Source of the DNA: Planctomycetota bacterium
GTDB taxonomy: Bacteria > Planctomycetota > UBA1135 > UBA2386
NCBI GenBank assembly: GCA_046349595.1
Contig: JAXMCA010000002.1
Coordinates: 102,827 to 166,826 of the forward strand
Direction of reading: 5' to 3'
Length of the DNA stretch: 64,000 nt
Below are positions 11,272-59,774 of the stretch, in pieces (position 1 is the first letter of the stretch; every line of letters begins with the position of its first letter). Made by a program: the position numbers and the translations under genes. The notes beneath the pieces were generated by a model. It worked only from the letters and a program-made list of their open reading frames with translations. It was not told where the DNA came from and made no database searches.

Positions 11272-12723
11272 TCAGGCGAGGATGTCCCACAGCGGATCGG
11301 CACCCTGCACACCGACGAGCTTGCGATCGAGCCCGGCGTAGAAGTAGCTCAACCGGTTCGGGTCGAGACCCATCAGGTAGAGCGCCGTCGCGTGCAGGTG
11401 CTTCACGTGCGTCGGGTCGTCGACCGCCGCATTGCCCAGTTCGTCGGTGGTGCCGTACGAGGTGCCGCCGCGGATGCCGCCGCCGGCGAGCCACATCGTG
11501 AAGCCCGCCGAGTCGTGGTCGCGCCCGGTGCCCTCGGCGTACTCCGCGGTGGGTTGACGACCGAATTCGCCGCCCCAGATCACCAGCGTCTCGTCGAGCA
11601 GTCCGCGCTGCTCGAGGTCCTTCAGCAGACCCGCGATCGGCCGATCGGTCGCGCCCGCATGCCGCGTGTGGTTGAAGACCAGATCGCCGTGCGCATCCCA
11701 GTTGTTGTCGTTGTGGTTGCCGCCGGAGTAGATCTGCACGAAGCGCACGCCGCGTTCGACGAGACGCCGAGCGAGCAGGCACTTGCGCCCGAAGCCCGCG
11801 GTGCGCGGGTCGTCCAGCCCGTACAGCGCCTGCGTTGCCGGTGATTCGCGCGCGAGGTCGACGGCCTCCGGCGCGTGCTCCTGCATCCGATAGGCGAGTT
11901 CGTAGCTGGCGATGCGCGCGGCGAGCTCACTGTCCCCCGGGCGCGTCGCCTCGTGCGCGGTGTTCATCTCGCCAATCGTGTCGAGCAGGCGGCGCTGCAT
12001 CCTGCGAGTGATCCCCTCGGGCGAGGCGAGGTCGAGGATCGGCACGCCCTTCGGACGCAGCACGACGCCCTGGAACGCGGCGGGCATGTATCCGGAACTC
12101 CAGTTCTTCGCACCCGAGATCGGTCCACCGGTGTCGTCGAGCATCACCACGAAGCCCGGCAGGTTCTCGTTGACGGTGCCGAGTCCGTAGTTGGTCCAGC
12201 TCCCGAGGCAGGGCGCGCCGCTGAGCAGGCTGCCCGAGTTCATCATCAGCATCGCCGAGCCGTGCAACGGCGACTCCGCGTACATCGAATGCACGAAGGC
12301 CATGCGGTCGACGCACTGCGCGAGGTTCGGGAACAGGTCCGACACCCACTTCCCGCTCTGTCCGTACTGCTTGAACTTCCACTTCGGGCCGACCACGCGC
12401 CCCTGCGACTTGCTCCCGCCACGACCCTTGGTGCGGATGTCGATGGTCTTGCCGTCGAGCGGGTAGAGCTTCGGCTTGTAGTCGAAGGTGTCCACCTGGC
12501 TCGGGCCGCCGTACATGAACAGGAAGATGCAGGCCTTCGCCTTGGGACGGTGATGCGGCTCCTTCGCGCGCAGCGGGTTGCCGTCGGGTCCGCCGTGACT
12601 CGAGAAGAAGCCGTCGCGGCCGAGCAGTTCGACCAGCGGCAGGCTGGCGAATCCTCCTCCGGCCTGCCACAGGAACTCGCGTCGCGTGCGTCCACAGAAG
12701 TTCTTGCGTGGTGTGTCGCTCAT
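11272..12723 (-). CDS. DUF1501 domain protein (sulfatase-like, Tat-secreted)
   Basis: A twin-arginine-like N-terminus (RTRREFLWQAGGGFA) and DUF1501 conserved blocks. Canonical partner of the upstream DUF1553 protein. Confidence 0.8.
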   Translation of the reverse strand: MSDTPRKNFCGRTRREFLWQAGGGFASLPLVELLGRDGFFSSHGGPDGNPLRAKEPHHRPKAKACIFLFMYGGPSQVDTFDYKPKLYPLDGKTIDIRTKGRGGSKSQGRVVGPKWKFKQYGQSGKWVSDLFPNLAQCVDRMAFVHSMYAESPLHGSAMLMMNSGSLLSGAPCLGSWTNYGLGTVNENLPGFVVMLDDTGGPISGAKNWSSGYMPAAFQGVVLRPKGVPILDLASPEGITRRMQRRLLDTIGEMNTAHEATRPGDSELAARIASYELAYRMQEHAPEAVDLARESPATQALYGLDDPRTAGFGRKCLLARRLVERGVRFVQIYSGGNHNDNNWDAHGDLVFNHTRHAGATDRPIAGLLKDLEQRGLLDETLVIWGGEFGRQPTAEYAEGTGRDHDSAGFTMWLAGGGIRGGTSYGTTDELGNAAVDDPTHVKHLHATALYLMGLDPNRLSYFYAGLDRKLVGVQGADPLWDILA

Positions 12724-12736
12724 CGCTGCGGCCCGA

Positions 12737-15463
12737 TCAGTCGAGGTAGACGAATTCGCTCAGGTTCAGCATCGCGAGGCAGCACAGGCGCAGCGCCTCG
12801 TCGTCCGGAGTGCGGTGCTCCTGCACCAGGTCGCCGTGCAACCGCGTGAGCGACGCGAGGTCGTGCTCGGTCGCCGGCCGCTGCGTGACCAGTTCGACAC
12901 CGCGTGCCAGTCGCGAGCGCAGATCGCCGCGCTCGGACGCGATCCGCTTCGCGAAACGCTCGGCCGTCGCATTGACGATCTCGCTGTTGAGCATGGTCAA
13001 CGCCTGCGTCGGCAGGGTCGTGACGAAGCGCACCGGACAGGTCGCGTCGGTGTCGGCGAGGTCGAAGGTCTGCAGCAGCGGCATCAGCAGCGACCGCTTC
13101 GCGTGCACGTAGATCGAACGACGCGCCGCCTGCTCCGGGGTCGAACGCCCCCACGCCTCGTCGGGCCGCGACGACGTCGCGAGCACCTCCGCGGGCATCG
13201 GCGGATAGACACCGGGCCCGCCCTTCTCGAGGTTCAGCGAACCGTCGACGGCGAGCATCGAGTCCCGAAGCTCCTCGGCGGTGAGGCGCCGCCGCTCGAA
13301 GCGCCAGAACAGGTCGTTGCGCGGGTCCTTCTCGAAGGCCGCCTCGTGCCAGTCCGACGCCATGCGGTACGTGCTCGACGTCATCAGCAACCGGTGGACG
13401 TCCTTGAGCCGTCCCCCGCGCGCCACGATCTCGCTGGCGAGCCAGTCGAGCAGTTCGGGATGCGTGGGTTCGTCGCCGAGCTTCCCGAAGTCGTTCGGCG
13501 AGCGCACGATCCCGCGGCCGAAGTGGTACTGCCACAGGCGGTTCGCCAGCACGCGCCAGGTGCGCGGATGGTCCGGCGCGAGCAGCCAGTTCGCGAAGGC
13601 GAGGCGTCGGCCGGAGGTCGCCGCTCCCTGCGGGGCGAGGATCGCGGCGTCACCACCACCGAGCACGTCGGGGAAGCCGCACACCACGGCATCGCCGTTC
13701 TGGTGCGCATTGCCACGCGGATGCACGAAGCTCGGCGCGATCTGCGATCCCAGCTCCTGCGCGCACAGCACCTCGACCTTCTGCTGCGTCGGTTGGGCGA
13801 GTTGCATCACGCGGGCGACCGCCGCGCGGTAGCGCTCCGCCTCGGGTCGCCCGACCTTCGCCTCGACCACCGCGTCGAGTCCCGGGCCGAAGCCCTCGCC
13901 CTCGTAGAGTTCGAGCACCTCGCGCGGCGACAGGACACGGTCGTAGACGCGCGGGTCGTCGAGATCGCCGCGGTAGACGCCGCGACCGATCTGGATGCGA
14001 CCGAGGGTGAGGCTCTTCGGGGCGGTCAGCGCCTGCTTGCCGCCCTCGGCCTGCGCGACGAGGACGCCATCGACGTAGAGCGCGAGGTGGCCGCTGTGTC
14101 GCTCGCGCGTGAATGCGGTGTGATGCCATCGCCCATCGGCGTTGCCGTCCCCGGAGGCGACGAAGGTGTCGGGATTGCCGACTCCCGCCGCGACGTGTCC
14201 GCCGATCAGCGACAGCCCGAAGTCGTCGACGACTCCTTCGACCTCGCCGTCGATGAGGCCGCTGCCGAGGTACCACTGCAGCGCGTTCGGGTCGCCCATG
14301 CCTGGCTTGTCGGTACGGAACCACACGGCGAGCGTGAAGTCGTCCTGCACGGCACGCGCGACGCGAAGCTCCGGCTTGCGCGGGCCGAAGGCTGCCGCAC
14401 GACCGACCTGTCCGTCGGCGACCTCACCCTCGTCGAAGGTCTCGTGCAGCACGAGACCGCGCGCCGACTCCGCCGACAGTTCCTCACGCGCGGTCGTGCC
14501 AAGACGCGAAAGCGCTTCCCGCGCGAGGTTGCGGGCTTCGTCGACCGCGGCACCGCGCGCGGTCCGCCACGCCTCCATCTCCTTCTGGAAATCGGCATGG
14601 CCGAGGTCGGTCGGCAACAACCTCACGTAGTTGGACTGCGCCGGCGCATTGCCGCCGCCGACCTTGTAGGGCGACAGGCCCTCGAAGAAGGCGAGCAGGC
14701 GGTAGTAGTCGCGCGTCGGGATCGGGTCCTTCTTGTGATCGTGGCAGCGCGCGCAGCCCATCGACATGCCGAGGAACACACGCGAGGTGGTGTCGAGGAC
14801 GTTGTCGTAGTCGTCGTAGACGGCCTGCAGCGGATCGGTCGGCTCATCGTCCCAGATGCCGAGGCGGTAGTAGCCGGTCGCGACCATCGTCTCGAAGGTC
14901 GGATGCTCCACCTCGTCACCGGCGAGCTGCTCGCGCGCGAACTCCGCGAAGGGCTTGTCGGCGTTGAGCGCTTCGACGACCCAGTCGCGGTAGCGCCACG
15001 CGCCGGGCTTCAGACGGTCGCGCTCGAAGCTGTCGGTCTCGGCGAAGCGCACGAGGTCGAGCCAATGGCGACCCCAGGCCTCGCCGTACTGCGGCGACGC
15101 GAGCAGGCGATCGACCAGCCGCTCGTACTTGTCGGCCGCGGTGTCGGCGACGTAGGCCGCGACCTCCTCCGGTGACGGCGGCAGACCCGTCAGGTCATAG
15201 GTCGCCCGGCGGATGAGCACGGCGTCGCCGGCCGTCGCGTTCGGCTGCAGTCCCGCCGCTTCGAGACGCGCGAGGACATAGGCATCGATCGGATTGCGCA
15301 CCCAGCTCGCGTCATGCACCGCGGGGACCGCGGGCCGGGTCAGCCGCGAGTAGGACCACTCGTCGCCGATTCGGGGAGCCGCCCCCGGTGCGAGGAGTGC
15401 CCCTGCACAGGGCAGCAGCAACGCGGCCAGGATCGCGGGGCGCACGAGGTTGTGGGCGAACAC
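12737..15463 (-). CDS. DUF1549/DUF1553/PSD1 domain protein with central LamG-like domain
   Basis: 908 aa with a signal peptide. DUF1549 N-terminus, GCARCHDHKKDPI (DUF1553 signature), a concanavalin/LamG-like insert, and a PSD1 C-terminus. Confidence 0.8.
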   Translation of the reverse strand: MFAHNLVRPAILAALLLPCAGALLAPGAAPRIGDEWSYSRLTRPAVPAVHDASWVRNPIDAYVLARLEAAGLQPNATAGDAVLIRRATYDLTGLPPSPEEVAAYVADTAADKYERLVDRLLASPQYGEAWGRHWLDLVRFAETDSFERDRLKPGAWRYRDWVVEALNADKPFAEFAREQLAGDEVEHPTFETMVATGYYRLGIWDDEPTDPLQAVYDDYDNVLDTTSRVFLGMSMGCARCHDHKKDPIPTRDYYRLLAFFEGLSPYKVGGGNAPAQSNYVRLLPTDLGHADFQKEMEAWRTARGAAVDEARNLAREALSRLGTTAREELSAESARGLVLHETFDEGEVADGQVGRAAAFGPRKPELRVARAVQDDFTLAVWFRTDKPGMGDPNALQWYLGSGLIDGEVEGVVDDFGLSLIGGHVAAGVGNPDTFVASGDGNADGRWHHTAFTRERHSGHLALYVDGVLVAQAEGGKQALTAPKSLTLGRIQIGRGVYRGDLDDPRVYDRVLSPREVLELYEGEGFGPGLDAVVEAKVGRPEAERYRAAVARVMQLAQPTQQKVEVLCAQELGSQIAPSFVHPRGNAHQNGDAVVCGFPDVLGGGDAAILAPQGAATSGRRLAFANWLLAPDHPRTWRVLANRLWQYHFGRGIVRSPNDFGKLGDEPTHPELLDWLASEIVARGGRLKDVHRLLMTSSTYRMASDWHEAAFEKDPRNDLFWRFERRRLTAEELRDSMLAVDGSLNLEKGGPGVYPPMPAEVLATSSRPDEAWGRSTPEQAARRSIYVHAKRSLLMPLLQTFDLADTDATCPVRFVTTLPTQALTMLNSEIVNATAERFAKRIASERGDLRSRLARGVELVTQRPATEHDLASLTRLHGDLVQEHRTPDDEALRLCCLAMLNLSEFVYLD

Positions 15464-15529: not shown

Positions 15530-16222
15530 TCAGTCCTCGGTCGCCGCGCGCTCGAGCAGATCGGCCACCAGGACCGGTCGCACCACCTGCGGGCAATGCC
15601 CGCTGTCGACGAGATGCGGTTCGACGTGCAGCAGCCTGCGCGCGGCACCGGCGCACCAATCCGCCGTGAGGGTGCGGTCACGGGCAGCGACGATCACCGT
15701 GGACGGCACGCGAGGGAGCGCGTCGAGCGGGCAGGGTTCGACCACCACGGCACGCGTGTCCATCGGTTCCATCGTCGCGAGTGCGAAGGGCAGGGTCGCA
15801 GCGGCCGCATCGTGGAACAGGAAGTCGCGGGCGAGCGCCTCACGCTGCACCGGATCCCTCCACCGGGCACCTGCGGCGATCCACTGCGCATGGAACATGC
15901 CGGCGTCTGCGGCGAACTGTTCACGCACGCTGCGTCCGGGCTCGGGGATCACCGCGGCGACGAACACCATGCGCGCGATCTTGGAACGCGCAGCGACGAG
16001 CGGCACGAACACGCCGCACAGCGAATGCGCGACCAGCACCGCACGATGGGTGGTCAGGTGGTCGGTGATCGCCGCGGCGTGGTGTTCGAGCCCGAGTGCG
16101 CCGTCGTCCTTGACGAGCTCCGGCGTGACCACGCGATGCCCGCGCAGACGGAGGATGGCAGCGACGCGCGCCCAGCTCCGTGCGTTCTGCCCGGAACCGT
16201 GGACGAGGACGAACTCGGTCAT
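15530..16222 (-). CDS. Alpha/beta hydrolase fold protein
   Basis: Internal Met (MTEFVLVHGSGQNARSW…) gives 230 aa with the nucleophile elbow HSLCG. The longer ORF-track N-terminus is artefactual. Confidence 0.6.
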   Translation of the reverse strand: MTEFVLVHGSGQNARSWARVAAILRLRGHRVVTPELVKDDGALGLEHHAAAITDHLTTHRAVLVAHSLCGVFVPLVAARSKIARMVFVAAVIPEPGRSVREQFAADAGMFHAQWIAAGARWRDPVQREALARDFLFHDAAAATLPFALATMEPMDTRAVVVEPCPLDALPRVPSTVIVAARDRTLTADWCAGAARRLLHVEPHLVDSGHCPQVVRPVLVADLLERAATED

Positions 16223-16315
16223 GGTGTGGTCCGATGCGGTGGCCGAGCGTCTCGCCCCGCTCCCACCGGCGGAAGGGCGTCGCAAGGGTTCCGCGGTCGA
16301 GTCGCCTCCGGAGGG

Positions 16316-16756
16316 ATGCCGAAGAGGCGTCGCATGCGCGTCCTCGTCACGCTCGCCGTCCTCGCCGTGCTCGGCATGGTCGGCATGGTCGTCCAGCACC
16401 AGTGCACCAAGGTCCGCTCACACGTCGGCAGCGGAGCCGCCGGGCCGAAGATCGAGACGATTTCCGAAGGGGAGCGTGTCGAGGTCGAGAACCACCTCGT
16501 CGACGGCCAATGGACCGTGTTCGAGTTCGGCGCCGACTGGTGAGGCGCCTGCGTCGAACTGGGTCCGCAGTTGGCGGACCTGATCCAGAGCCTGAACGGG
16601 GTCCGACTCCGCCGCATCGAAGTGCCCGACTGGGACTGCCCGGTCGCCGCACAGTGCAACATCCACGCGCTGCCCACGCTGTGGCTCTACGACGGACGCA
16701 ACAAGGTCAGCGCCGACACCGGCGAGGTGCTGCAGCGGCTCGCCGAGCGGCGCTGA
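16316..16756 (+). CDS. Membrane-anchored thioredoxin-fold protein with in-frame UGA (putative selenoprotein, UxxC)
   Basis: ORFs 15596..16543 and 16571..16756 are in the same frame, separated only by TGA 16541-16543. Joint translation gives a complete thioredoxin fold: …WTVFEFGADW-[UGA]-GACVELGPQLADL…IHALPTLWLYDG…. The UGA sits exactly at the first Cys of the WCxxC motif. There is an N-terminal TM anchor (MPKRRRMRVLVTLAVLAVLGMV) and a SECIS-like hairpin 19 nt downstream. Confidence 0.6.
16562..16580 (+). ncRNA. Candidate bacterial SECIS stem-loop (cis element within the CDS)
   Basis: A perfect 7-bp stem (GGUCCGC/GCGGACC) with apical loop AGUUG that contains G-U. The loop lies about 26 nt 3' of the UGA, within the 16-37 nt window typical of bacterial SECIS elements. 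Confidence 0.4.
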
Positions 16757-16780
16757 CGCCGACGGTCATCGCACGGCGGA

Positions 16781-17233
16781 TCACGACGGGATCTCGGCCT
16801 CGACCAGCGAGGCCAGCAGCTCCAGCGACTGCTGCCAGCCCATGTAGCACATCTCGACCGGGATCACTGCAGGCAGTCCTTCCTGCGTGATGCTCACGTC
16901 GGTGCCGCCGATCACCTCGCGCAGCACCACGGTGGTCATCATCGTGCCCGGCAGGTTCGGATCGTCGAACACGTCGGTGTAGCGCAGCTTCAGATTCGGC
17001 ACGAGCTCGACGAACTTGCCGCCGAAGGAGTGCTCCTGCCCGTTGCCGAAGTTGACGAAGGACATGCGGTAGACGCCACCGACACGCGCGTCCATCTCGT
17101 GCATCTGCCCGACGAAGCCGTGGGGCGGCAGCCACTTGCACATCGCCAGCGGATCGAGGAAGGCCCGGTAGATGCGCTCGGCGGGAGCGCGCAGCACGCG
17201 GTGGAGGCGGACGGTGTTGGTGGTCTCTTTCAT
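16781..17233 (-). CDS. SRPBCC / AHSA1-like (activator of Hsp90 ATPase homolog) domain protein
   Basis: 150 aa from the internal Met (MKETTNTVRLHRVLRAPAERIYRAFLDP…). AHSA1/START-like pattern. The upstream part of the track ORF is Arg-rich artefact. Confidence 0.6.
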   Translation of the reverse strand: MKETTNTVRLHRVLRAPAERIYRAFLDPLAMCKWLPPHGFVGQMHEMDARVGGVYRMSFVNFGNGQEHSFGGKFVELVPNLKLRYTDVFDDPNLPGTMMTTVVLREVIGGTDVSITQEGLPAVIPVEMCYMGWQQSLELLASLVEAEIPS

Positions 17234-41904: not shown

Positions 41905-43203
41905 TCAGTCGATCTTCACACCGAGTTTCTTCAACGCCGCCTCGACACGCGTGTCGCCGGCCTCGTAGCCGGAGATCGACGCGGCGACCTTGCCATCCTT
42001 GTCGATCACGAAGGTGGCCGGGATGCCACGCACGTTGTAGTCACGGCGCGGGAAACTACCCTCGGCCTGACGGCCGGCCGGATCGCGCGCAAATGTCATG
42101 TGCAGCTCGGCGCGGCGCTCGTTGATCAGGCGGAGATAGGGCTTCTCGTCGTCGTTGACGTTCAGCGCGATGACCTCGACGTCCTGATCCTTCACGGCAT
42201 CGTGGATCTTCGAGAGGTGCGGGAGGCTCGCCATGCACGGCGAACACCAGGTCGCCCACATGTCGACGACCACGATCTTGCGGCCGCGGAAGTCGGAGAG
42301 GCGAAAGGTCTCGGGGTCGCCGCCGTCGACGAAGCGCTGCGCGGTGAAGTCGGGCGCCACGCTGCCGGCCGGGAGCAGCACCGGACCCTCCGCAGGCGGA
42401 GGCGGCGCCTTGAGCACCTTGAAGGTCGGCGCGAGCACGAGGTGTGCGCCGTCGTCGCTCACGTCCGCGAGGTAGTTCATGCCGCGGAACGGGAAGGTGC
42501 CGCGCGCGTCGAATCGATCACCATCCAGGCTCAGCCACACCGGCTTGCCGACCGCGCCGACGACGTCGACGGAGCGATGGTCGAAGCGCTTGTCGAAGCG
42601 CGCATCGCAGTCGTTCTCCATCAGCGTGACGGTCCAGGTCTTGTCGCCGATCGACACCGAACCGACGCGCGCCGCGGCGGTGTGGTAGTTCATGCGATCA
42701 CGGTCGGGCGAGTAGTAGAAGTTGACGCCGTAGTCCCCGCTGCTCGCCTTGCCGTCCGCGGCCTGCCAGCCGACGTGGAACACGAAGGTGCCGCTGTACG
42801 AGGCCGAGGCGCCCTCGCGTTCCGCCTTGGTCGGCCAGGCGCCGTCGCCGTCGTCGCTCAGGTCGCCGTCGCCGTCGAGATCGAGGTAGACCTTCGCATC
42901 GCCGTGCTCCGGTTCGTCGACCGCGATGGCGCGGGTGCTGTGCGCGTCGTTGCCGAGGGTCAGCGTCGCATAGCGCGGCTTGCCCTCGTAGGTCGGCTCC
43001 TTGCGCACACAGGCAGGCCGCTCGGCCTGCAGCATGAGCGAGGCCGGCATGTACATCAGGCCTGCCTTGCGGATGCCCTCCATGTCGAACTTGCGCGGCG
43101 CGAGTTCGAGCGCGCACTCGGCGCGATCGGCGGCGTCCTGCGCGGCGAGGGGAAGGGCGGTCAGCAGAGGGACGAAGAACGCGGTCGGGATCAGCGTGCG
43201 CAT
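41905..43203 (-). CDS. TlpA-like periplasmic thiol:disulfide oxidoreductase with N-terminal extra domain
   Basis: Signal peptide (MRTLIPTAFFVPLLTALPLAAQ). C-terminal Trx fold with active site WATWCSPC and cis-Pro region. Confidence 0.7.
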   Translation of the reverse strand: MRTLIPTAFFVPLLTALPLAAQDAADRAECALELAPRKFDMEGIRKAGLMYMPASLMLQAERPACVRKEPTYEGKPRYATLTLGNDAHSTRAIAVDEPEHGDAKVYLDLDGDGDLSDDGDGAWPTKAEREGASASYSGTFVFHVGWQAADGKASSGDYGVNFYYSPDRDRMNYHTAAARVGSVSIGDKTWTVTLMENDCDARFDKRFDHRSVDVVGAVGKPVWLSLDGDRFDARGTFPFRGMNYLADVSDDGAHLVLAPTFKVLKAPPPPAEGPVLLPAGSVAPDFTAQRFVDGGDPETFRLSDFRGRKIVVVDMWATWCSPCMASLPHLSKIHDAVKDQDVEVIALNVNDDEKPYLRLINERRAELHMTFARDPAGRQAEGSFPRRDYNVRGIPATFVIDKDGKVAASISGYEAGDTRVEAALKKLGVKID

Positions 43204-43303
43204 GGGAGGGGTCACTCGACGCAGATGATGCCCCGCACACTCCGCCGGATCGCAGGCCAATCGGCGATCCACGGCGACGGTGCCCTCCCGGACCCCGGCT
43301 TCT

Positions 43304-54361: not shown

Positions 54362-56311
54362 ATGAACATGAGCCCTTCGCCCAAGGGACTTCTCTTCACC
54401 GTCGTCGCCGCGAGCCTGGTCGGCTGCGGCGGCGGAAGCCCCGGTGGCGCGACCTCCAATGAGATCGTCGCACTGATGAACGCTCGCGGCCTGAAGGAGG
54501 CCGACGTCACCGCAGCCCTCAAGACCTACACGCCCACTGGCAAGCACGACGAGTACTACACCTTCGCGTCGGGCGGACACGCCGGAAACCTGATCGTGAT
54601 CGGCGTGCCGAGCATGCGGATCCTGAAGTACGTCGCGGTCTTTACTCCCGAGCCCTGGCAGGGCTACGGGTACGGCGACCAGAGCGGCGAGGTGTTGACC
54701 CAGGGAACGCGCCACCACAAGCGCCTCACCTGGGCCGACATGCACCACCCGGCCCTGAGCGAGACCAATGGCGACTACGACGGCAAGTTCGTGTTCGTCA
54801 ACGACAAGGCCAATCCGCGGATCGCGGTGGTCGACCTCCACGACTTCGTCACCAAGCAGATCGTGACGAGCGAACTGATCGAGTGCGATCACGGCGCGGC
54901 GTTCGTGACCCCGAACACCGAATACGTGATCGAGACCTCGCAGTACCCCGCCCCGCTGGGCGGACGCTACGCGCCGATCGAGAAGTTCAACGACGAGTAC
55001 CGCGGCGCGATCCTGTTCTGGAAGTTCGACCGCGAGACGGGGCGGATCGTCCCGGAGCAGTCGTTCGCGGTGGAACTGCCACCCTACATGCAGGACCTCG
55101 CCGACGCCGGCAAGCGCGTGTCGGAGGGTTGGGTGTTCTGCAACTCGATCGACACCGAACGGTCCTACGGAGGCACCGCGGAGGGACGTCCCCCGCTCGA
55201 AGCAGGCGCCTCGCAGAACGACATGGACTACCTGCACGTCTTCGACCTGAAGAAGGCCGAGCAGGTGGTCGCGGCCGGCAAGACCGAGACCATCGCCAAG
55301 ATGCGGGTCATCCGCCTGCAGACGGCGATCGACGAGGGTCTGGTGCACTTCATCCCCGAGCCGAAGAGCCCGCACGGCCTCGACATCACGCCGGACGGCG
55401 CCGAACTCGTGGTCGGTGGCAAGCTCGACACGCACTGCACCGTCTACTCCTTCGCGAAGATCAAGGACCTGATCGCGCAGAAGAAGTACGCGGGCAAGGA
55501 TCCCTACGGCGTGCCGATCCTCGACTTCGCGTCGGCGATCCGCGGTCAATGCGAGATCGGGCTCGGCCCGCTCCACACTCAGTTCGACGACAAGGGCTTC
55601 GCCTACACGTCGGTGTTCATCGAGTCGACCGTCGCCAAGTGGTCGGTCAAGGACCTCAAGGTCGTCGACAAGGTGAACGTCCACTTCAACATCGGTCACC
55701 TGGTCGCGGCGGAAGGCGACACCGTCTCCCCCGACGGTCGCTTCCTGATCGCGATGGACAAGTGGGCGATCGATCGCTTCGCCGGAGTCGGCCCGCTGCT
55801 CCCGCAGAACTTCCAGCTGATCGACATCTCGGGCGACAAGATGCAGTTGCTCTACGACATGCCTCTGCCGCTCGGTGAGCCGCACTACGCGCAGATGGTC
55901 AAGGCGGACAAGCTGCACCCCGTCGATGTGTACTCGCCGATCGGAATCGATCCGTTCACCATGAAGGTCGATCCGAACGCGACCGTCTCGGGCAAGGAGC
56001 GCATCGAACGCAAGGCCGACGGCGTCCACGTGTTCATGACTGCGGTGCGCAGCCACTTCACGCCGGACACGATCCGTGTGAAGCAGGGTGAGCGGGTCCA
56101 TCTGCACCTGACCAACGTCGAGCAGGCGCACGATGCGACGCACGGCTTCTGCATCGGCTCCTACAACGTCAACGTCAGCCTCGAGCCCGGCAAGCACACC
56201 AACATCGACTTCGTCGCCGACGAGGCCGGCGTGTTCCCGATGTACTGCACCGAGTTCTGCTCGGCCCTGCACCTCGAGATGGCCGGCTACTTCCTGGTCG
56301 AGCCGCAATGA
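54362..56311 (+). CDS. nosZ: Nitrous-oxide reductase, clade II (Sec/lipoprotein-type NosZ)
   Basis: 649 aa. Sec lipoprotein signal (…ASLVGCGGG) rather than Tat. Seven-bladed propeller with CuZ His ligands, and a C-terminal cupredoxin CuA site (…HGFCIGSYN…MYCTEFCSALHLEMAGYF). Confidence 0.9.
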   Translation: MNMSPSPKGLLFTVVAASLVGCGGGSPGGATSNEIVALMNARGLKEADVTAALKTYTPTGKHDEYYTFASGGHAGNLIVIGVPSMRILKYVAVFTPEPWQGYGYGDQSGEVLTQGTRHHKRLTWADMHHPALSETNGDYDGKFVFVNDKANPRIAVVDLHDFVTKQIVTSELIECDHGAAFVTPNTEYVIETSQYPAPLGGRYAPIEKFNDEYRGAILFWKFDRETGRIVPEQSFAVELPPYMQDLADAGKRVSEGWVFCNSIDTERSYGGTAEGRPPLEAGASQNDMDYLHVFDLKKAEQVVAAGKTETIAKMRVIRLQTAIDEGLVHFIPEPKSPHGLDITPDGAELVVGGKLDTHCTVYSFAKIKDLIAQKKYAGKDPYGVPILDFASAIRGQCEIGLGPLHTQFDDKGFAYTSVFIESTVAKWSVKDLKVVDKVNVHFNIGHLVAAEGDTVSPDGRFLIAMDKWAIDRFAGVGPLLPQNFQLIDISGDKMQLLYDMPLPLGEPHYAQMVKADKLHPVDVYSPIGIDPFTMKVDPNATVSGKERIERKADGVHVFMTAVRSHFTPDTIRVKQGERVHLHLTNVEQAHDATHGFCIGSYNVNVSLEPGKHTNIDFVADEAGVFPMYCTEFCSALHLEMAGYFLVEPQ

Positions 56312-57618
56312 ACTCCGCTCCCGCGATCATCCTCTGCGCCGCACTCGCCGCCGTGACGGCGTGTGCGGATGGTCGCGGCGCGGGAGCGCCGGCGCCCCAG
56401 CCGCTGCCGGCGCCCGCGGGAGGCAGGTCCGTTCCACCGGGAGGGTTGCAGGACGCTCTGACCGAGGCAGCAGCCGGGGCGGTGCTGCTCCTCGAACCGG
56501 GTCTGCACCCGGGGCCGATCCGCATCACGAGACCCGTGACGATCTGGGGGCCGCCGACGGCGATCCTCCGCTCGACGGGCGAAGGCACCACGCTGTCGGT
56601 CGAAGCGGCCGGAACGAAGCTGTCCGGATTCACGGTCGACGGCAGCGGTTCGCGCTTCGACACCACCGACGCCGCCGTCCGCGTGCGGGCCGACGACGTC
56701 GAGGTGCGCGGACTGAGCGTGGTCCACTCCCTGTTCGGCATCCTGGTCGAACTCAGCAAGCGCGCCGAGATCCGCGACAACCTGGTGGAAGGGACCGGAC
56801 AACCCGCGCACGGTCTGCGCGGCGACGGCATCCGTCTGTGGGAGACCACCGATTCCGTGGTCAGCGGCAATCGCGTGCGCGATGCGCGCGACGTCGTGGT
56901 TTGGTACTCGTCGCACAACCGGGTCGTCGGCAACGACGTCCGCGGCTGCCGCTACGGCACGCACTTCATGTACAGCCACGAGAACCTCGTGGCGGACAAT
57001 CGCTATCGCGACAACGTCGTCGGCATCTTCGTGATGTACAGCCACGACGTGTCGATCGAGCGCAACCTCATCGCGCATTGCTCGGGTGCGGCCGGTGTCG
57101 GACTCGGGGTCAAGGAATCCGGCAACCTCACGGTCGCCGCCAACGCCTTCCTCGCCAACACCACGAGCATCTACCTCGACACCTCTCCCCTGGATCGCAA
57201 CCAGACCAACCGCTTCCGGGGCAACCACATCCGCATGAGTGACACCGGCGTGGTGTTCCACGCCAGCCCCGAGCGCAACGAATTCGAGGACAACAGCCTG
57301 CGCGACAACACGCATCAGGTGCAGGTCGGCGGCGGTGGGGACGCCATGCGGACCAGCTGGCGCGGCAACTGCTGGGACGACTACCAGGGCTACGACCTCG
57401 ACGGCGACGGCCGCGGCGACGTCGCCTACGAACTCCGCAGCCTGTCCAGCGATCTGCTCGGCAAGCAGCCCGAGCTGGCCTTGCTGCGCGGAACTCCTGC
57501 CCTCGCGATGGTCGACCTCGTCGGCGAGGTGCTGCCCCTGTTCGCGCCGCAGCAACTGCTCGTCGACGAGTCGCCGCGACTCGTCTCCTCACCTCTGGAG
57601 TGGTTCGATGCGCATTGA
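56308..57618 (+). CDS. nosD: NosD, periplasmic parallel beta-helix Cu-centre assembly protein
   Basis: Signal peptide and right-handed beta-helix repeats (…VVGNDVRGCRYGTHFMYSHENLVADNRYRDNVVGIFVMYSH…). ATGA overlap with nosZ. Confidence 0.8.
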   Translation: MNSAPAIILCAALAAVTACADGRGAGAPAPQPLPAPAGGRSVPPGGLQDALTEAAAGAVLLLEPGLHPGPIRITRPVTIWGPPTAILRSTGEGTTLSVEAAGTKLSGFTVDGSGSRFDTTDAAVRVRADDVEVRGLSVVHSLFGILVELSKRAEIRDNLVEGTGQPAHGLRGDGIRLWETTDSVVSGNRVRDARDVVVWYSSHNRVVGNDVRGCRYGTHFMYSHENLVADNRYRDNVVGIFVMYSHDVSIERNLIAHCSGAAGVGLGVKESGNLTVAANAFLANTTSIYLDTSPLDRNQTNRFRGNHIRMSDTGVVFHASPERNEFEDNSLRDNTHQVQVGGGGDAMRTSWRGNCWDDYQGYDLDGDGRGDVAYELRSLSSDLLGKQPELALLRGTPALAMVDLVGEVLPLFAPQQLLVDESPRLVSSPLEWFDAH

Positions 57619-58489
57619 ACTGGAATCCGTGCGCCGTCGCTTCGGGTCCGTCGTCGCGCTCGACGGCATCGATCTGTGCCTCGCGTCCGGCTCGCGGACC
57701 GCGCTGGTCGGCCCGAACGGTTCCGGAAAGTCGACGCTGATCCGCATCGTGTGCGGCCTGATCGGCCACGAGGGTCGCGTCGCGATCGACGGCCTCGATC
57801 CGCTCACCGACCGTGCGAAGCTCGCCCCCCGCGTCGCCTACGTGCCGCAGGTGGCGCCGCGCCTCTCGGCGACGGTCGGCGAACTCACCGCGGCGGTGTG
57901 CCGTCTGCGCCGGTCGCCGCAGGAGCCGATCCTCGACGCCGCACGCGGCATCGGCCTCGACCCGGTGGCCCTGCGCGGCAAGCCGCTGCGCTCGCTCTCG
58001 GGCGGCACGCGCCAGAAGCTGCTCGCCGCCTTCGCGCTCGGCTCCGGTGCCGAGCTGCTCGTGCTCGACGAACCCACCGCGAGCATGGATGCGATGAGCC
58101 GCACGCGGTTCTTCGACCTCGTGCAGTTGCTCGACCCACGCCCCACGCTGCTGCTGTGCTCGCACCGTCTCGACGAGATCCGCAATCTCGTCGATCGCGT
58201 CGTCGCACTCGAGGAAGGGAAGGTCGACCACGACGGTCCGGCCACGCAGTACTTCGCGGCCACCGGACGCTCGGTGGTCGAACTGCGCACGCACAACGGC
58301 CGAGCCTCCACGTTCCTGCTCGAGCACGGTTTCCAGCAGAGCGGCACCGGCTGGTGGCGGACGACCATCGGCACCGCGTCGCGCGGTGAGCTGGTGCGCG
58401 AGGTGTCGGATCGACTCGGCACCGAGCTCGAGGACATCGTCGTCCGCGACGTCGAGGAGTCCCGATCGGGACCGGAGACACGCCGATGA
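57608..58489 (+). CDS. nosF: NosF, ABC transporter ATP-binding protein
   Basis: Walker A GPNGSGKST, signature LSGGTRQK, Walker B LLVLDEPT. Overlaps the nosD 3' end. Confidence 0.8.
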   Translation: MRIELESVRRRFGSVVALDGIDLCLASGSRTALVGPNGSGKSTLIRIVCGLIGHEGRVAIDGLDPLTDRAKLAPRVAYVPQVAPRLSATVGELTAAVCRLRRSPQEPILDAARGIGLDPVALRGKPLRSLSGGTRQKLLAAFALGSGAELLVLDEPTASMDAMSRTRFFDLVQLLDPRPTLLLCSHRLDEIRNLVDRVVALEEGKVDHDGPATQYFAATGRSVVELRTHNGRASTFLLEHGFQQSGTGWWRTTIGTASRGELVREVSDRLGTELEDIVVRDVEESRSGPETRR

Positions 58490-58938
58490 ACGGCAGCCGC
58501 TCGCTCACCTGGATCCTCGGCGCCCTGGTTCTCGTGGGTCTGTCGGTCGTCGCCCGCACCGTGATCGGCGCCGGCCGACCGCCGGCCGGTCCCGTGGAGC
58601 CGGTCTGGGACCGCGAGGCCTGCGCGTTCTGCGCGATGCACGTCGGAGAACGCGGTTTCGCTTGTCAGCTGCAATCGAGCCGCGGCGACGTCCGCTTCTT
58701 CGACGATCCCGGCTGCCTGCTCGAGGATCTCGACGCGACCAAGCCCGAGATCCACGCGATCTACTTCCACGCGCACGATTCCGATCGCTGGCTGTCACGC
58801 GAGGAGGTCCGTTTCGTCGCCCTGACCCCCACACCGATGGGCTACGGGCTCGCCGCGGTGTCCGCCGACACGCCCGGTTCGATGTCCCTCGAACAAGCAG
58901 AGGAGCGCGTCCGTGCCCGACGCGAATCACGCCGATGA
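58486..58938 (+). CDS. nosL: NosL copper chaperone-like lipoprotein
   Basis: 150 aa with a signal/anchor. NosL-like …CAFCAMHV…YFHAHDS…. ATGA overlap with nosF. Confidence 0.65.
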   Translation: MNGSRSLTWILGALVLVGLSVVARTVIGAGRPPAGPVEPVWDREACAFCAMHVGERGFACQLQSSRGDVRFFDDPGCLLEDLDATKPEIHAIYFHAHDSDRWLSREEVRFVALTPTPMGYGLAAVSADTPGSMSLEQAEERVRARRESRR

Positions 58939-59774
58939 TCGCCCGTCACGAGTTCGCCGCGATCGCGCGGCTGGAGATCGCCGAGGTGCTGCGGTCCCGC
59001 TGGCTGGTGTTCTGCATCGCCGTCTATGCGGTGCTGACCGGGATCTTCGTGCTGGTCGGTCTGCGCGAGTCGACGGTGATGGGCTTCACCGGCATGGGCC
59101 GCGTGCTGATGTCGTTCAGCCACGCACTGGTGTTCCTGCTGCCGCTGCTCGGACTCGGCGCGAGCGGCCAGATCGTCAACGGCGCTCGTGACGACGGCAC
59201 GCTCGAACTCCTGTTCGGTCACCCGCTGGGTCGTTCGGGCTGGTTCGGCTCCGTGTCGCTGGTGCGCTTCGTGGCGCTCGCCGCGCCGCTCGTCCTGCTG
59301 CTCCCGATCATGGCGATCGCCGGGAGCCTGATGTTCGGACAGATCGTGCCGTGGGGTTTCCTGCTGCGTGTGACCGCGGTCAGCACCGCGCTCCTGTGGT
59401 GTTCGGTCGCCCTCGGCTTCGCCATCTCCACCTTCGTCCGTGGCCAGGCCAAGGCCCTGATGCTGCTGCTCTTCGCATGGGCCGCGCAGGTCGCGCTGAT
59501 CGACTTCGGCCTGATCGGGCTGATGCTGCAATGGCACCTGCCGGCGGAGGCGGTCTTCGCGCTGGCCGCCCTGAATCCCGTGCAGGACGCACGGCTCGCC
59601 CTGCTCTCCGCCGCCGATCCCGAACTCGCCACCTTGGGCCCCGTCGGCTTCTACCTCGCCAATCACCTCGGCAGCGGTGCGCTGCTCGCGCTCGGCATCG
59701 GCTGGCCACTCCTGCTCGGCTCGACCGTCTGGCTCCTGAGCGCGCGCCACTTCGAGTCCGGCGACCTCGTGTGA
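58935..59774 (+). CDS. nosY: NosY, ABC-2 type permease
   Basis: 279 aa from the internal Met (MIARHEF…) with six TM helices. ATGA overlap with nosL. Confidence 0.7.
   Translation: MIARHEFAAIARLEIAEVLRSRWLVFCIAVYAVLTGIFVLVGLRESTVMGFTGMGRVLMSFSHALVFLLPLLGLGASGQIVNGARDDGTLELLFGHPLGRSGWFGSVSLVRFVALAAPLVLLLPIMAIAGSLMFGQIVPWGFLLRVTAVSTALLWCSVALGFAISTFVRGQAKALMLLLFAWAAQVALIDFGLIGLMLQWHLPAEAVFALAALNPVQDARLALLSAADPELATLGPVGFYLANHLGSGALLALGIGWPLLLGSTVWLLSARHFESGDLV

What the first reader, a model, noticed from the sequence alone, without database searches (positions are those of the whole stretch)
16316..16756. Thioredoxin-fold membrane protein with UGA at the first active-site cysteine: predicted UxxC selenoprotein with SECIS-like hairpin
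Two adjacent same-frame ORFs are separated by a single TGA (16541-16543). Read together they form one complete thioredoxin domain (βαβ–W-x-x-C–α…cis-Pro loop IHALPTLWLYDG). The stop falls precisely where the WCxxC nucleophilic Cys belongs (GADW-U-GAC). A perfect 7-bp hairpin with a G/U-containing apical loop starts 19 nt downstream (16562-16580), so the loop is about 26 nt from the UGA, inside the usual bacterial SECIS window. No selA/selB/selD genes are in this window, so they would have to lie elsewhere in the genome.
Basis: partly seen in the sequence, partly recalled or inferred. Interest (0 to 1): 0.8.

Follow-up and report, generated by a model that had tools for sequence, protein, structure and literature searches.

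The report
Selenocysteine thioredoxin-like membrane protein gene
What is annotated as two small hypothetical genes in a Planctomycetota genome is almost certainly one gene for a membrane-anchored thioredoxin-like enzyme whose active-site cysteine is replaced by selenocysteine (encoded by UGA), which is a well-known kind of bacterial selenoprotein that annotation pipelines routinely miss.

Summary
Window 16334 (or 16316)–16756 (+) is one reading frame with a single in-frame TGA at 16541-16543. It encodes a TM anchor plus a complete thioredoxin domain, and the TGA sits exactly at the first Cys of WCxxC.

- Nine distinct homologues (39-55% identical, from soil, marine and other metagenomes) carry TGA in the same column, with a conserved open frame on both sides.
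- Cys-type homologues are single ORFs with Cys in that column.
- dN/dS downstream of the TGA is 0.12-0.39, the same as upstream.
- A hairpin (stem, loop AGUUG, stem) lies 25 nt after the UGA. It meets all four published bacterial SECIS constraints, occurs in all 12 Sec-type genes with compensatory pair changes, and is absent from the Cys-type genes examined.
- One related gene has three modules. Its two UGA modules have the hairpin and its Cys module does not.
- UGA is the normal stop for 44 of 48 window genes, so the code is not reassigned.

Not shown: selA/B/C/D in the source genome. They are absent from the window and the rest of the MAG was unreachable. UxxC thioredoxin-fold selenoproteins are well known, so this is a new or unannotated member of a known kind. 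Interest is modest.

The parts
16334..16756 (+). Complete selenoprotein gene (140 codons including Sec). An alternative start at ATG 16316 would add MPKRRR. It is currently annotated as two hypothetical proteins, U1F36_13885 (69 aa) and U1F36_13890 (61 aa).
   Evidence: Homologues start M[RQK] followed by a hydrophobic stretch, which favours 16334.
16340..16396 (+). N-terminal hydrophobic signal-anchor (VLVTLAVLAVLGMVGMVVQ). Positive charges precede it, so the thioredoxin domain is predicted to face the periplasm.
   Evidence: mean Kyte-Doolittle 2.47 over 19 residues. The same anchor is present in Sec- and Cys-type homologues. The topology is an inference.
16541..16543 (+). In-frame UGA, predicted selenocysteine codon, at the first position of the UxxC (U-G-A-C) redox motif.
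16550..16552 (+). TGC codon for the resolving Cys of UxxC.
   Evidence: The column is invariant in the family alignment.
16560..16582 (+). SECIS-like hairpin. The 5' arm is 16560-16568, the loop is 16569-16573 (AGUUG) and the 3' arm is 16574-16582. It has seven Watson-Crick and two wobble pairs and starts 25 nt after the UGA (to the loop). It is embedded in the codons for L-G-P-Q-L-A-D-L.
16673..16675 (+). Codon for the cis-Pro of the thioredoxin fold (HALPTLWLYDG). It is invariant in the family.
16571..16756 (+). Artefactual 61-aa ORF called by gene finders. Its TTG 'start' is the UUG of the hairpin loop.
   Evidence: Many homologous fragments start at the same LEAL/MGPQ position.
16754..16756 (+). 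True stop codon (TGA).

Best explanation
One gene encodes a roughly 140-aa membrane-anchored, probably periplasm-facing, thioredoxin-fold thiol:disulfide oxidoreductase with a U-G-A-C active site.

Proposed mechanism: during translation, the hairpin 25 nt downstream of UGA 16541 acts as a bacterial SECIS. SelB·GTP·Sec-tRNA(Sec) binds its apical loop (A-G-U-U-G) and delivers selenocysteine to the UGA instead of release factor 2. Translation then continues through the rest of the thioredoxin domain.

In the protein, Sec replaces the nucleophilic Cys at the N-terminus of helix alpha-1. It attacks substrate disulfides to form a selenenylsulfide, which the downstream Cys resolves.

Shown here:
- the single frame, the thioredoxin domain and the Cys/Sec column;
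- conservation of the UGA and of both halves across homologues;
- purifying selection downstream of the UGA;
- a conserved, co-varying hairpin that is specific to the UGA-type genes.

Inferred: SelB dependence, actual Se incorporation, periplasmic topology, and the redox substrate or partner.
For: 1. Domain and motif. PF00085 spans the TGA. PDB thioredoxins align U with the first Cys of WCGPC and align the cis-Pro.

2. Homologues. A full HMMER search with the downstream 70 aa gave 73 hits. They include full-length Cys-type proteins of 134-162 aa (…[FY]xAxWC..C…). They also include about 30 clusters of 47-83-aa ORFs that begin just after the CxxC position.

3. DNA of the short-ORF hits. Five of these clusters (P0005, P0021, P0034, P0050, P0043) were traced to DNA. 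All are downstream halves of TGA-interrupted genes.

4. Conserved UGA. L018, L020, L021/22, L023, L024, L025, L026, L027 and L028/29 all read TM anchor – ISxGE – T[VI]xEFxAx[WF] – TGA – xxC – ..GPQLEA…, with both sides in frame.

5. Strain variant. L014 differs at 12 of 423 nt. It has a different downstream neighbour but keeps the TGA and the hairpin.

6. Selection. dN/dS downstream of the TGA is 0.20 (window/L014) and 0.12-0.39 (L025/26/27), similar to upstream.

7. Hairpin and the bSECIS model. The published constraints are a loop of 3-9 nt, a stem of 4-16 bp, G in the first two loop positions, 16-37 nt spacing and MFE <= -7.5 (PMC13188914). Here the loop is 5 nt (AGUUG), the stem 7-9 bp, the spacing 25 nt and the energy -15.5 kcal/mol.

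8. Hairpin conservation. RNAalifold recovers it independently. Compensatory changes occur at three pairs. 82% of cells are paired, against 73±2% in shuffles (0/500) and 31-58% in slid registers.

9. Hairpin specificity. It is present in all 12 Sec-type sequences and absent at that register in Cys-type L032 and L033 and in DsbD-like L001-3. In the three-module gene of L036, the two UGA modules have it. The Cys module has the same GPQVEE peptide but lacks the hairpin.

10. Genetic code. TGA terminates 44 of 48 predicted window genes. Only this site looks like an intragenic TGA.
Against: - No selA, selB, selD or tRNA-Sec is in the 64-kb window or in any fetched flank. The rest of the 2.4-Mb MAG contig could not be read.
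- The Sec trait is patchy in Planctomycetes (PMC4807772), so the phylum does not guarantee it.
- The hairpin alone is only about a 3% event in this 70% GC sequence.
- The hairpin lies in codons for a conserved peptide, so part of its conservation could be protein-level.
- No Rfam family matched.
- There is no expression or selenium-incorporation data.
Confidence: 0.85

Rival explanations
1. Pseudogene. A Cys codon (TGC/TGT) mutated to TGA, so the gene is dead and only a 69-aa stub is made.
For: TGC to TGA is a single-base change. NCBI annotates two hypothetical ORFs. No sel genes are in the window.
Against: - The same TGA occurs in nine distinct homologues only 39-55% identical, with the downstream frame intact and conserved.
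- dN/dS downstream is 0.12-0.39.
- The TGA is retained in a diverged strain with a rearranged neighbourhood.
- The hairpin co-occurs with the UGA.
Confidence: 0.04
2. The UGA is read through without selenocysteine, for example by near-cognate Cys- or Trp-tRNA, possibly helped by the hairpin. This would be because this organism has lost, or never had, the Sec machinery.
For: The Sec machinery is unverified for this MAG, and the Sec trait is patchy in Planctomycetes. From general knowledge of selenoprotein biology, low-level Cys or Trp insertion at Sec-UGA under selenium limitation is documented.
Against: - UGA is the standard stop in the window (44 of 48 genes).
- The hairpin fits the SelB-type bSECIS consensus, including G-[G/U] in the loop, in all family members.
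- A UGA maintained precisely at a catalytic Cys column across many lineages is the signature of Sec (PMC1088965 and PMC2398784).
Confidence: 0.07
3. Two independent small genes: a 69-aa membrane peptide and a 61-aa soluble protein starting at TTG 16571.
For: Gene callers call both ORFs on every contig.
Against: - The split would cut a thioredoxin fold in the middle of its active site, and the downstream ORF would lack the CxxC.
- Cys-type homologues are single ORFs.
- The 'starts' of the downstream ORFs differ among homologues (ATG, GTG or TTG at various positions). In the window, the start is the UUG of the hairpin loop.
- Conservation is continuous across the junction (xxC..L between the UGA and the called start).
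Confidence: 0.02
4. Sequencing or assembly error creating a false stop.
For: None beyond the prior probability.
Against: The DNA is identical on contigs from at least 10 independent samples and assemblers. The same TGA is present in unrelated metagenomes.
Confidence: 0

Closest known systems
Bacterial Sec-containing thioredoxin and Trx-like proteins with a UxxC motif. These are 'Thioredoxin (Trx) PF00085 UxxC' in the prokaryotic selenoprotein inventory (PMC13188914) and 'Trx-like 1/2/3' in the GOS selenoproteome (PMC2398784).
   Same: Thioredoxin fold, Sec at the first position of CxxC, abundant Cys-containing homologues, and an in-ORF SECIS hairpin just downstream of the UGA.
   Different: This subfamily has its own architecture and signature: an N-terminal membrane anchor, an ISxGE strand, …[WF]UxxC..[LV]GPQLEA…, and LRxIDIxxWxSPVAxQxxIxxLPxLWLY. 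No NCBIfam model reaches its cutoff, and PGAP leaves the gene split. I could not establish whether it was among the sequences pooled under 'Trx-like 1/2' in the earlier surveys.
C-terminal (gamma) thioredoxin domain of DsbD, that is 'thiol:disulfide interchange protein' (cd02953, Trx-like 2 of PMC2398784).
   Same: The active-site block is nearly identical: ADW[C/U]GACVEL in L001-L003 and in the window. Both are predicted to be periplasmic.
   Different: There is no DsbD membrane core or alpha domain. NF001419 scores 17 bits against a cutoff of 330. The protein is a stand-alone, single-TM-anchored domain.
Membrane-anchored periplasmic thioredoxin-like reductases TlpA, ResA, CcmG and StoA.
   Same: An N-terminal anchor plus a periplasmic Trx-fold CxxC domain, so it probably works similarly, as a reductant or isomerase receiving electrons from a DsbD/CcdA-type protein.
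   Different: It lacks the central insert of the redoxin-type fold. The Pfam AhpC-TSA match (the redoxin-type fold family) and the NCBIfam ResA and StoA matches are far below their cutoffs. There are no cytochrome-c maturation genes nearby.
E. coli fdhF / Moorella-type bacterial SECIS recognised by SelB.
   Same: A hairpin inside the ORF immediately 3' of the UGA, with G-U/G-G exposed in a small apical loop, and spacing within the consensus 16-37 nt.
   Different: The sequence is unrelated to fdhF. Here the stem-loop is built from the codons of a conserved helix (G-P-Q-L-E-x-L). SelB binding was not tested.

Membership tests
Bacterial selenoprotein gene (Sec-UGA with bSECIS) | An in-frame UGA that aligns with a (catalytic) Cys in homologues | tested here: met
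   The U column equals the first Cys of WCxxC in nine Cys-type family members and in PDB thioredoxins.
Bacterial selenoprotein gene (Sec-UGA with bSECIS) | The UGA and the coding sequence on both sides are conserved in diverged homologues, with purifying selection downstream | tested here: met
   (nine distinct loci, 39-55% identity). (dN/dS 0.12-0.39 downstream).
Bacterial selenoprotein gene (Sec-UGA with bSECIS) | The bSECIS consensus: apical loop 3-9 nt, upper stem 4-16 bp, G in the first two loop positions, 16-37 nt from UGA to loop, MFE <= -7.5 kcal/mol (PMC13188914) | tested here: met
   The loop is AGUUG (5 nt), the stem 7-9 bp, the spacing 25 nt and the energy -15.5 kcal/mol. It is conserved with covariation.
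Bacterial selenoprotein gene (Sec-UGA with bSECIS) | selA, selB, selC (tRNA-Sec) and selD present in the same genome | not testable with these tools
   They are absent from the window and all fetched flanks. The rest of the MAG (a 2.4-Mb contig) could not be fetched. A SelA search returned only enterobacterial rows.
Bacterial selenoprotein gene (Sec-UGA with bSECIS) | Demonstrated selenium incorporation or Se-dependent read-through | not testable with these tools
   This needs 75Se labelling, mass spectrometry or reporter assays.
Thioredoxin fold family (Pfam PF00085) | A domain match above the gathering threshold | tested here: met
   40.8 bits against 23.5, residues 64-137, spanning the UGA.
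Thioredoxin fold family (Pfam PF00085) | W-C/U-x-x-C at the start of alpha-1, and a cis-Pro loop | tested here: met
Canonical thioredoxin TrxA/TrxC (NCBIfam TIGR01068, NF008229) | An equivalog score above the curated cutoff | tested here: not met
   37.3 bits against 96.8, and 27.7 against 125. It has the thioredoxin fold but is not a canonical cytoplasmic thioredoxin.
DsbD (NF001419) | A full DsbD architecture or a score above cutoff | tested here: not met
   17 bits against 330. Only the gamma-domain-like motif is shared.
TlpA/ResA/redoxin family | A match to the redoxin-type fold family (AhpC-TSA) or to ResA above cutoff | tested here: not met
   AhpC-TSA 15.2 bits against 26; ResA 17.3 against 170.
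Curated selenoprotein Trx-like families (SaoT NF040730, PDO_seleno_TRX TIGR02187) | A match above cutoff | tested here: not met
   SaoT gave no hit at E<=0.01. TIGR02187 scored 15.7 bits against 185, and only for one homologue.

The most novel reading that the evidence does not exclude
This may be the first recognised representative of a distinct, widespread and so far unannotated subfamily of membrane-anchored periplasmic seleno-thioredoxins.
- About 30 clusters at 50% identity are present in soil, rhizosphere, marine and engineered-system metagenomes.
- The subfamily has its own conserved SECIS (GGNCCUC-AGUUG-GAGGNCC), written into the codons of the G-P-Q-L-E-A helix.
- It includes multi-module proteins with two or more Sec residues in one chain (L036).
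Probability: 0.3. Interest if true: 0.5.

Novelty: new member of a known kind. Interest (0 to 1): 0.35.

Why it matters
- Annotation. The gene is deposited as two hypothetical proteins, and dozens of homologous fragments in public protein sets are halves of selenoprotein genes. Merging them would correct the records.
- Inference about the organism. It implies that this Planctomycetota lineage, which also carries clade-II nosZ, decodes selenocysteine.
- SECIS biology. The family offers a compact, well-conserved SECIS with natural compensatory variants and built-in Cys-module controls. This is useful for training bacterial SECIS and selenoprotein predictors and for SelB-binding studies.
- Limits. 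It does not change what is known about selenoprotein biology, because UxxC thioredoxin-fold selenoproteins are the commonest class.

Tried and rejected
- Rfam evalue scan of 16200-16900. Only sub-threshold chance hits appeared, and no SECIS family.
- The search for homologous proteins with the Cys-substituted full protein. No hit at E<=1e-3, and it did not even return the identical 69-aa fragment, so that index seems to miss these short ORFs.
- Submitting the joined protein, or the DNA with its internal stop, to the representative search. The downstream 70 aa were used instead.
- Genome-contig scan. It found only distant DsbD-gamma-like Cys proteins. The source genome is not a GTDB representative.
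- First metagenome scan, with the single protein. Nothing found. A 31-sequence alignment was too diverse to give a search pattern. A 10-sequence alignment worked.
- Reaching the 2.4-Mb MAG contig through the look-up of encoding contigs. Only short ENA and Logan contigs are indexed.
- Looking for the MAG's SelA through the search for homologous proteins with E. coli SelA. Only the best 120 rows were shown, all Enterobacteria, so it was uninformative.
- P0022, P0046, P0049, P0054 and P0066 are long repetitive proteins. P0022 was inspected and is an unrelated repeat protein, so these were treated as false positives.
- Genome-wide UGA reassignment was rejected.
- dN/dS for distant pairs (window/L018, L020/L023, L023/L024) is saturated or misaligned by indels, so it was not used.

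Full report
**1. Observation**

The window has about 70% GC. On the + strand, the frame that starts at ATG 16316 or ATG 16334 runs to TGA 16754-16756. It has one internal stop, TGA 16541-16543.

The translation reads M(PKRRRM)RVLVTLAVLAVLGMVGMVVQ…DGQWTVFEFGADW*GACVELGPQLADLIQ…IHALPTLWLYDG…. With Cys substituted for the stop:
- Pfam Thioredoxin (PF00085) matches residues 64-137, across the junction (E=2.4e-10, 40.8 bits against a cutoff of 23.5).
- Solved thioredoxins align the stop with the first Cys of WCGPC, and ALPTL with the cis-Pro loop.

Third-position GC is 0.83 upstream and 0.92 downstream of the TGA in the same frame. The N-terminus is a 19-residue hydrophobic anchor preceded by basic residues.

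Seven Watson-Crick pairs join 16562-16568 to 16574-16580. Two wobble pairs (16561:16581 and 16560:16582) extend the stem. The loop is AGUUG (16569-16573), and 25 nt separate the UGA from the loop. A hairpin with this geometry and at least this length occurs at 2.7% of codon positions in the window's own genes. The 60-nt fold has z=-2.1. Taken alone, the hairpin is therefore suggestive, not proof.

**2. Source and reproducibility**

The 69-aa product that ends at the TGA is on record on 20 contigs from at least 10 independent samples (ENA, Logan and NCBI). The whole 423-nt gene is identical in the ten contigs fetched, although one is cut off after 303 nt.

The exact sequences carry NCBI names: 'MAG: hypothetical protein U1F36_13885 / U1F36_13890 [Planctomycetota bacterium]'. 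They sit on a 2,415,146-bp contig. The gene is therefore deposited as two hypothetical proteins.

One strain variant, L014, differs at 12 of 423 nt (7 synonymous, 5 non-synonymous). It has a different gene immediately downstream, yet it keeps the TGA and an unchanged hairpin.

**3. Comparative evidence (the decisive part)**

A word-indexed protein search found nothing. A full HMMER search of 1.84 billion representatives with the 70 residues downstream of the TGA gave 73 hits. They fall into two classes:
- Full-length proteins of 134-162 aa with the same architecture and a Cys motif, such as FTASWCPGC, FTAEWCPAC, FEAEWCGAC and FYADWCGPC.
- About 30 clusters of 47-83-aa ORFs that begin just after the CxxC position (MGPQLEAL…, VGPQVEA…, LEALV…).

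I fetched DNA for the closest of these (L018) and for 12 metagenome loci found with an alignment-derived pattern. L018, L020, L021/L022, L023, L024, L025, L026, L027 and L028/L029 all read the same way: TM anchor – ISxGExV – T[VI]xEFxAx[W/F] – TGA – xxC – ..[LV]GPQLEA – LRxIDIxxWxSxVAxQxxIxxLPTLWLY. They are only 39-55% identical to the window protein, and the frame is open and conserved on both sides of the TGA.

Several of the short database ORFs (P0021, P0034, P0050, P0043, P0005) are demonstrably the downstream halves of such genes. In a joint alignment the U column coincides with the first Cys of the Cys-type members.

For pairs close enough to align without gaps, dN/dS downstream of the TGA is:
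- 0.20 for window/L014;
- 0.12-0.39 among L025, L026 and L027.

These values match those upstream, so the downstream half is translated. A nonsense mutation cannot explain a TGA kept in one column across this much divergence.

**4. The hairpin behaves as a SECIS**

The published bacterial SECIS model requires four things (PMC13188914): an apical loop of 3-9 nt, an upper stem of 4-16 bp, a G in the first two loop positions (usually G followed by G or U), 16-37 nt between the UGA and the loop, and MFE <= -7.5 kcal/mol. The window element meets all four: loop AGUUG, stem 7-9 bp, spacing 25 nt, -15.5 kcal/mol.

All 12 Sec-type sequences have a stem-loop in exactly this register, with a loop of AGUUG or AGGUC. 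RNAalifold recovers it without guidance.

On the alignment, three pairs show changes on both sides:
- G:C to U:A at columns 42/50;
- U:A to G:C at columns 39/53;
- G:U to C:G at columns 36/56.

82% of cells are paired, against 73±2% in shuffles (0 of 500 reach the observed value) and 31-58% in slid registers. Some compensations pair a synonymous change with a non-synonymous one (Pro CCG to CCU with Ala GCG to Glu GAG). This points to selection on the RNA.

The Cys-type genes L032 and L033 and the DsbD-like L001-L003 have no hairpin at that position.

L036 gives a within-gene control. It encodes a signal peptide and three tandem modules in one frame. Modules 1 and 3 have TGA followed by the hairpin. 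Module 2 has TGT and the same GPQVEE peptide, but a disrupted stem. The hairpin therefore follows the UGA, not the peptide.

**5. Alternatives**

- UGA is not reassigned. It terminates 44 of 48 predicted window genes, and no other intragenic TGA candidate exists in the window.
- Two independent small genes is not tenable. The split falls inside the active site, and the Cys forms are single ORFs. The 'starts' of the downstream ORFs vary, and in the window the start is the UUG of the hairpin loop.
- Assembly error is excluded.

The remaining uncertainty is whether this particular organism has the Sec machinery. The window has no tRNA. It has no SelA, SelB or SelD domains among about 45 predicted proteins, and no tblastn match to E. 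coli SelA/B/D.

I could not reach the rest of the MAG. The genome is not a GTDB representative. Its long contig is not in the look-up index. A SelA search showed only enterobacterial rows. The Sec trait is patchy among Planctomycetes (PMC4807772). I therefore put 0.85 on functional Sec decoding here, and about 0.07 on Sec-independent read-through.

**6. What it is like, and whether it is new**

UxxC thioredoxin-fold proteins are the most common class of bacterial selenoproteins. Examples:
- 'Thioredoxin UxxC' and 'thiol-disulfide isomerase-like' in the Sargasso Sea (PMC1088965);
- 'Trx-like 1/2/3' in GOS (PMC2398784);
- 'Thioredoxin (Trx) PF00085 UxxC' in the 2026 inventory (PMC13188914).

The active-site block ADW[U/C]GACVEL resembles the DsbD gamma domain. 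The overall design, an anchor plus a periplasmic Trx domain, resembles TlpA, ResA and CcmG. However, no curated NCBIfam model reaches its cutoff for thioredoxin, TrxC, DsbD, ResA, StoA, PDO_seleno_TRX or SaoT. The protein works like these families without being a member of any tested one.

I file it as a new, or at least unannotated, member of a known kind. The gene neighbourhood is not conserved among homologues, so no partner or substrate can be inferred. Periplasmic thiol:disulfide reduction or isomerisation is the most likely role, and that is an inference.

**7. Verdict**

Interest is modest at 0.35. This is a solid, well-controlled selenoprotein prediction and an annotation fix, and it comes with a neat family-specific SECIS. 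It is not a new mechanism.

Noticed in passing
L036:981-2042 (Logan ERR14790946 contig): One reading frame encodes a signal peptide plus three tandem modules of this thioredoxin-like family. Modules 1 and 3 have in-frame TGA (EFYADW-TGA-GGC and EFYADW-TGA-GAC), each followed by the hairpin. Module 2 has Cys (TGT) and no hairpin. This is a predicted two-Sec, three-module secreted protein that gene callers split into three ORFs. P0019, P0027, P0041 and P0059 look like fragments of similar multi-module genes, and some of their modules have degenerate, Cys-less motifs.
   Followed up: partly
window 16571 and homologous loci: Gene callers systematically start a spurious downstream ORF at the UUG, or a nearby AUG or GUG, inside or next to the SECIS loop. 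About 30 clusters of 47-83-aa 'proteins' in public sets are therefore really C-terminal halves of selenoproteins.
   Followed up: partly
L019:168-413 (ENA ERZ27321363, 580-bp contig, coverage 0.9): This relative is 58% identical over the downstream half and keeps the hairpin with two compensatory pair changes. It lacks the whole N-terminal half and the W-U motif; upstream it reads MNRYARTFTALAAAC. It may be a truncated relic or a chimeric low-coverage assembly.
   Followed up: no
L030:~1038 (Ga0316626_10090961): A family relative with neither Cys nor Sec at the active site (…LVLFASSQTAEERTLARQLE…). It appears to be a redox-dead paralogue that keeps the anchor and the LPTLWLYEG loop.
   Followed up: no
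window 54368-59771 (+): A nosZ gene (nos_propeller plus cupredoxin/COX2 domains, 647 aa) is followed by nosD-like, ABC ATPase and ABC-2 permease genes. This is a nitrous-oxide reductase cluster in a Planctomycetota MAG.
   Followed up: no
window 11272-15463 (-): A PSCyt2/Laminin_G_3/PSD1 protein (908 aa) next to a DUF1501 protein (483 aa), the typical Planctomycetes gene pair. It lies immediately upstream of the alpha/beta hydrolase that diverges from the selenoprotein gene.
   Followed up: no
window 41908-43215 (-): A second exported thiol-disulfide oxidoreductase: 436 aa with a C-terminal Redoxin/AhpC-TSA (TlpA-like) domain of the ordinary Cys type.
   Followed up: no
window 16200-16800 versus L004-L013, L014, L015: The locus is 100% identical at the DNA level in contigs from at least 10 unrelated sequencing runs, so one clone is very widely sampled. 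A roughly 3%-diverged strain (L014) has a glyoxalase gene instead of the AHSA1/SRPBCC gene directly after the stop codon, so a rearrangement breakpoint lies right at the gene's 3' end.
   Followed up: partly
one search hits P0022, P0046, P0049, P0054, P0066: Long repetitive proteins (for example P0022, 2246 aa, about 55-aa repeats 'MNLNDSELSVDVLRLLISAVS…') scored E<1e-4 through many weak repeated matches. They are unrelated to thioredoxins and show how repeats can produce false positives in the representative search.
   Followed up: yes
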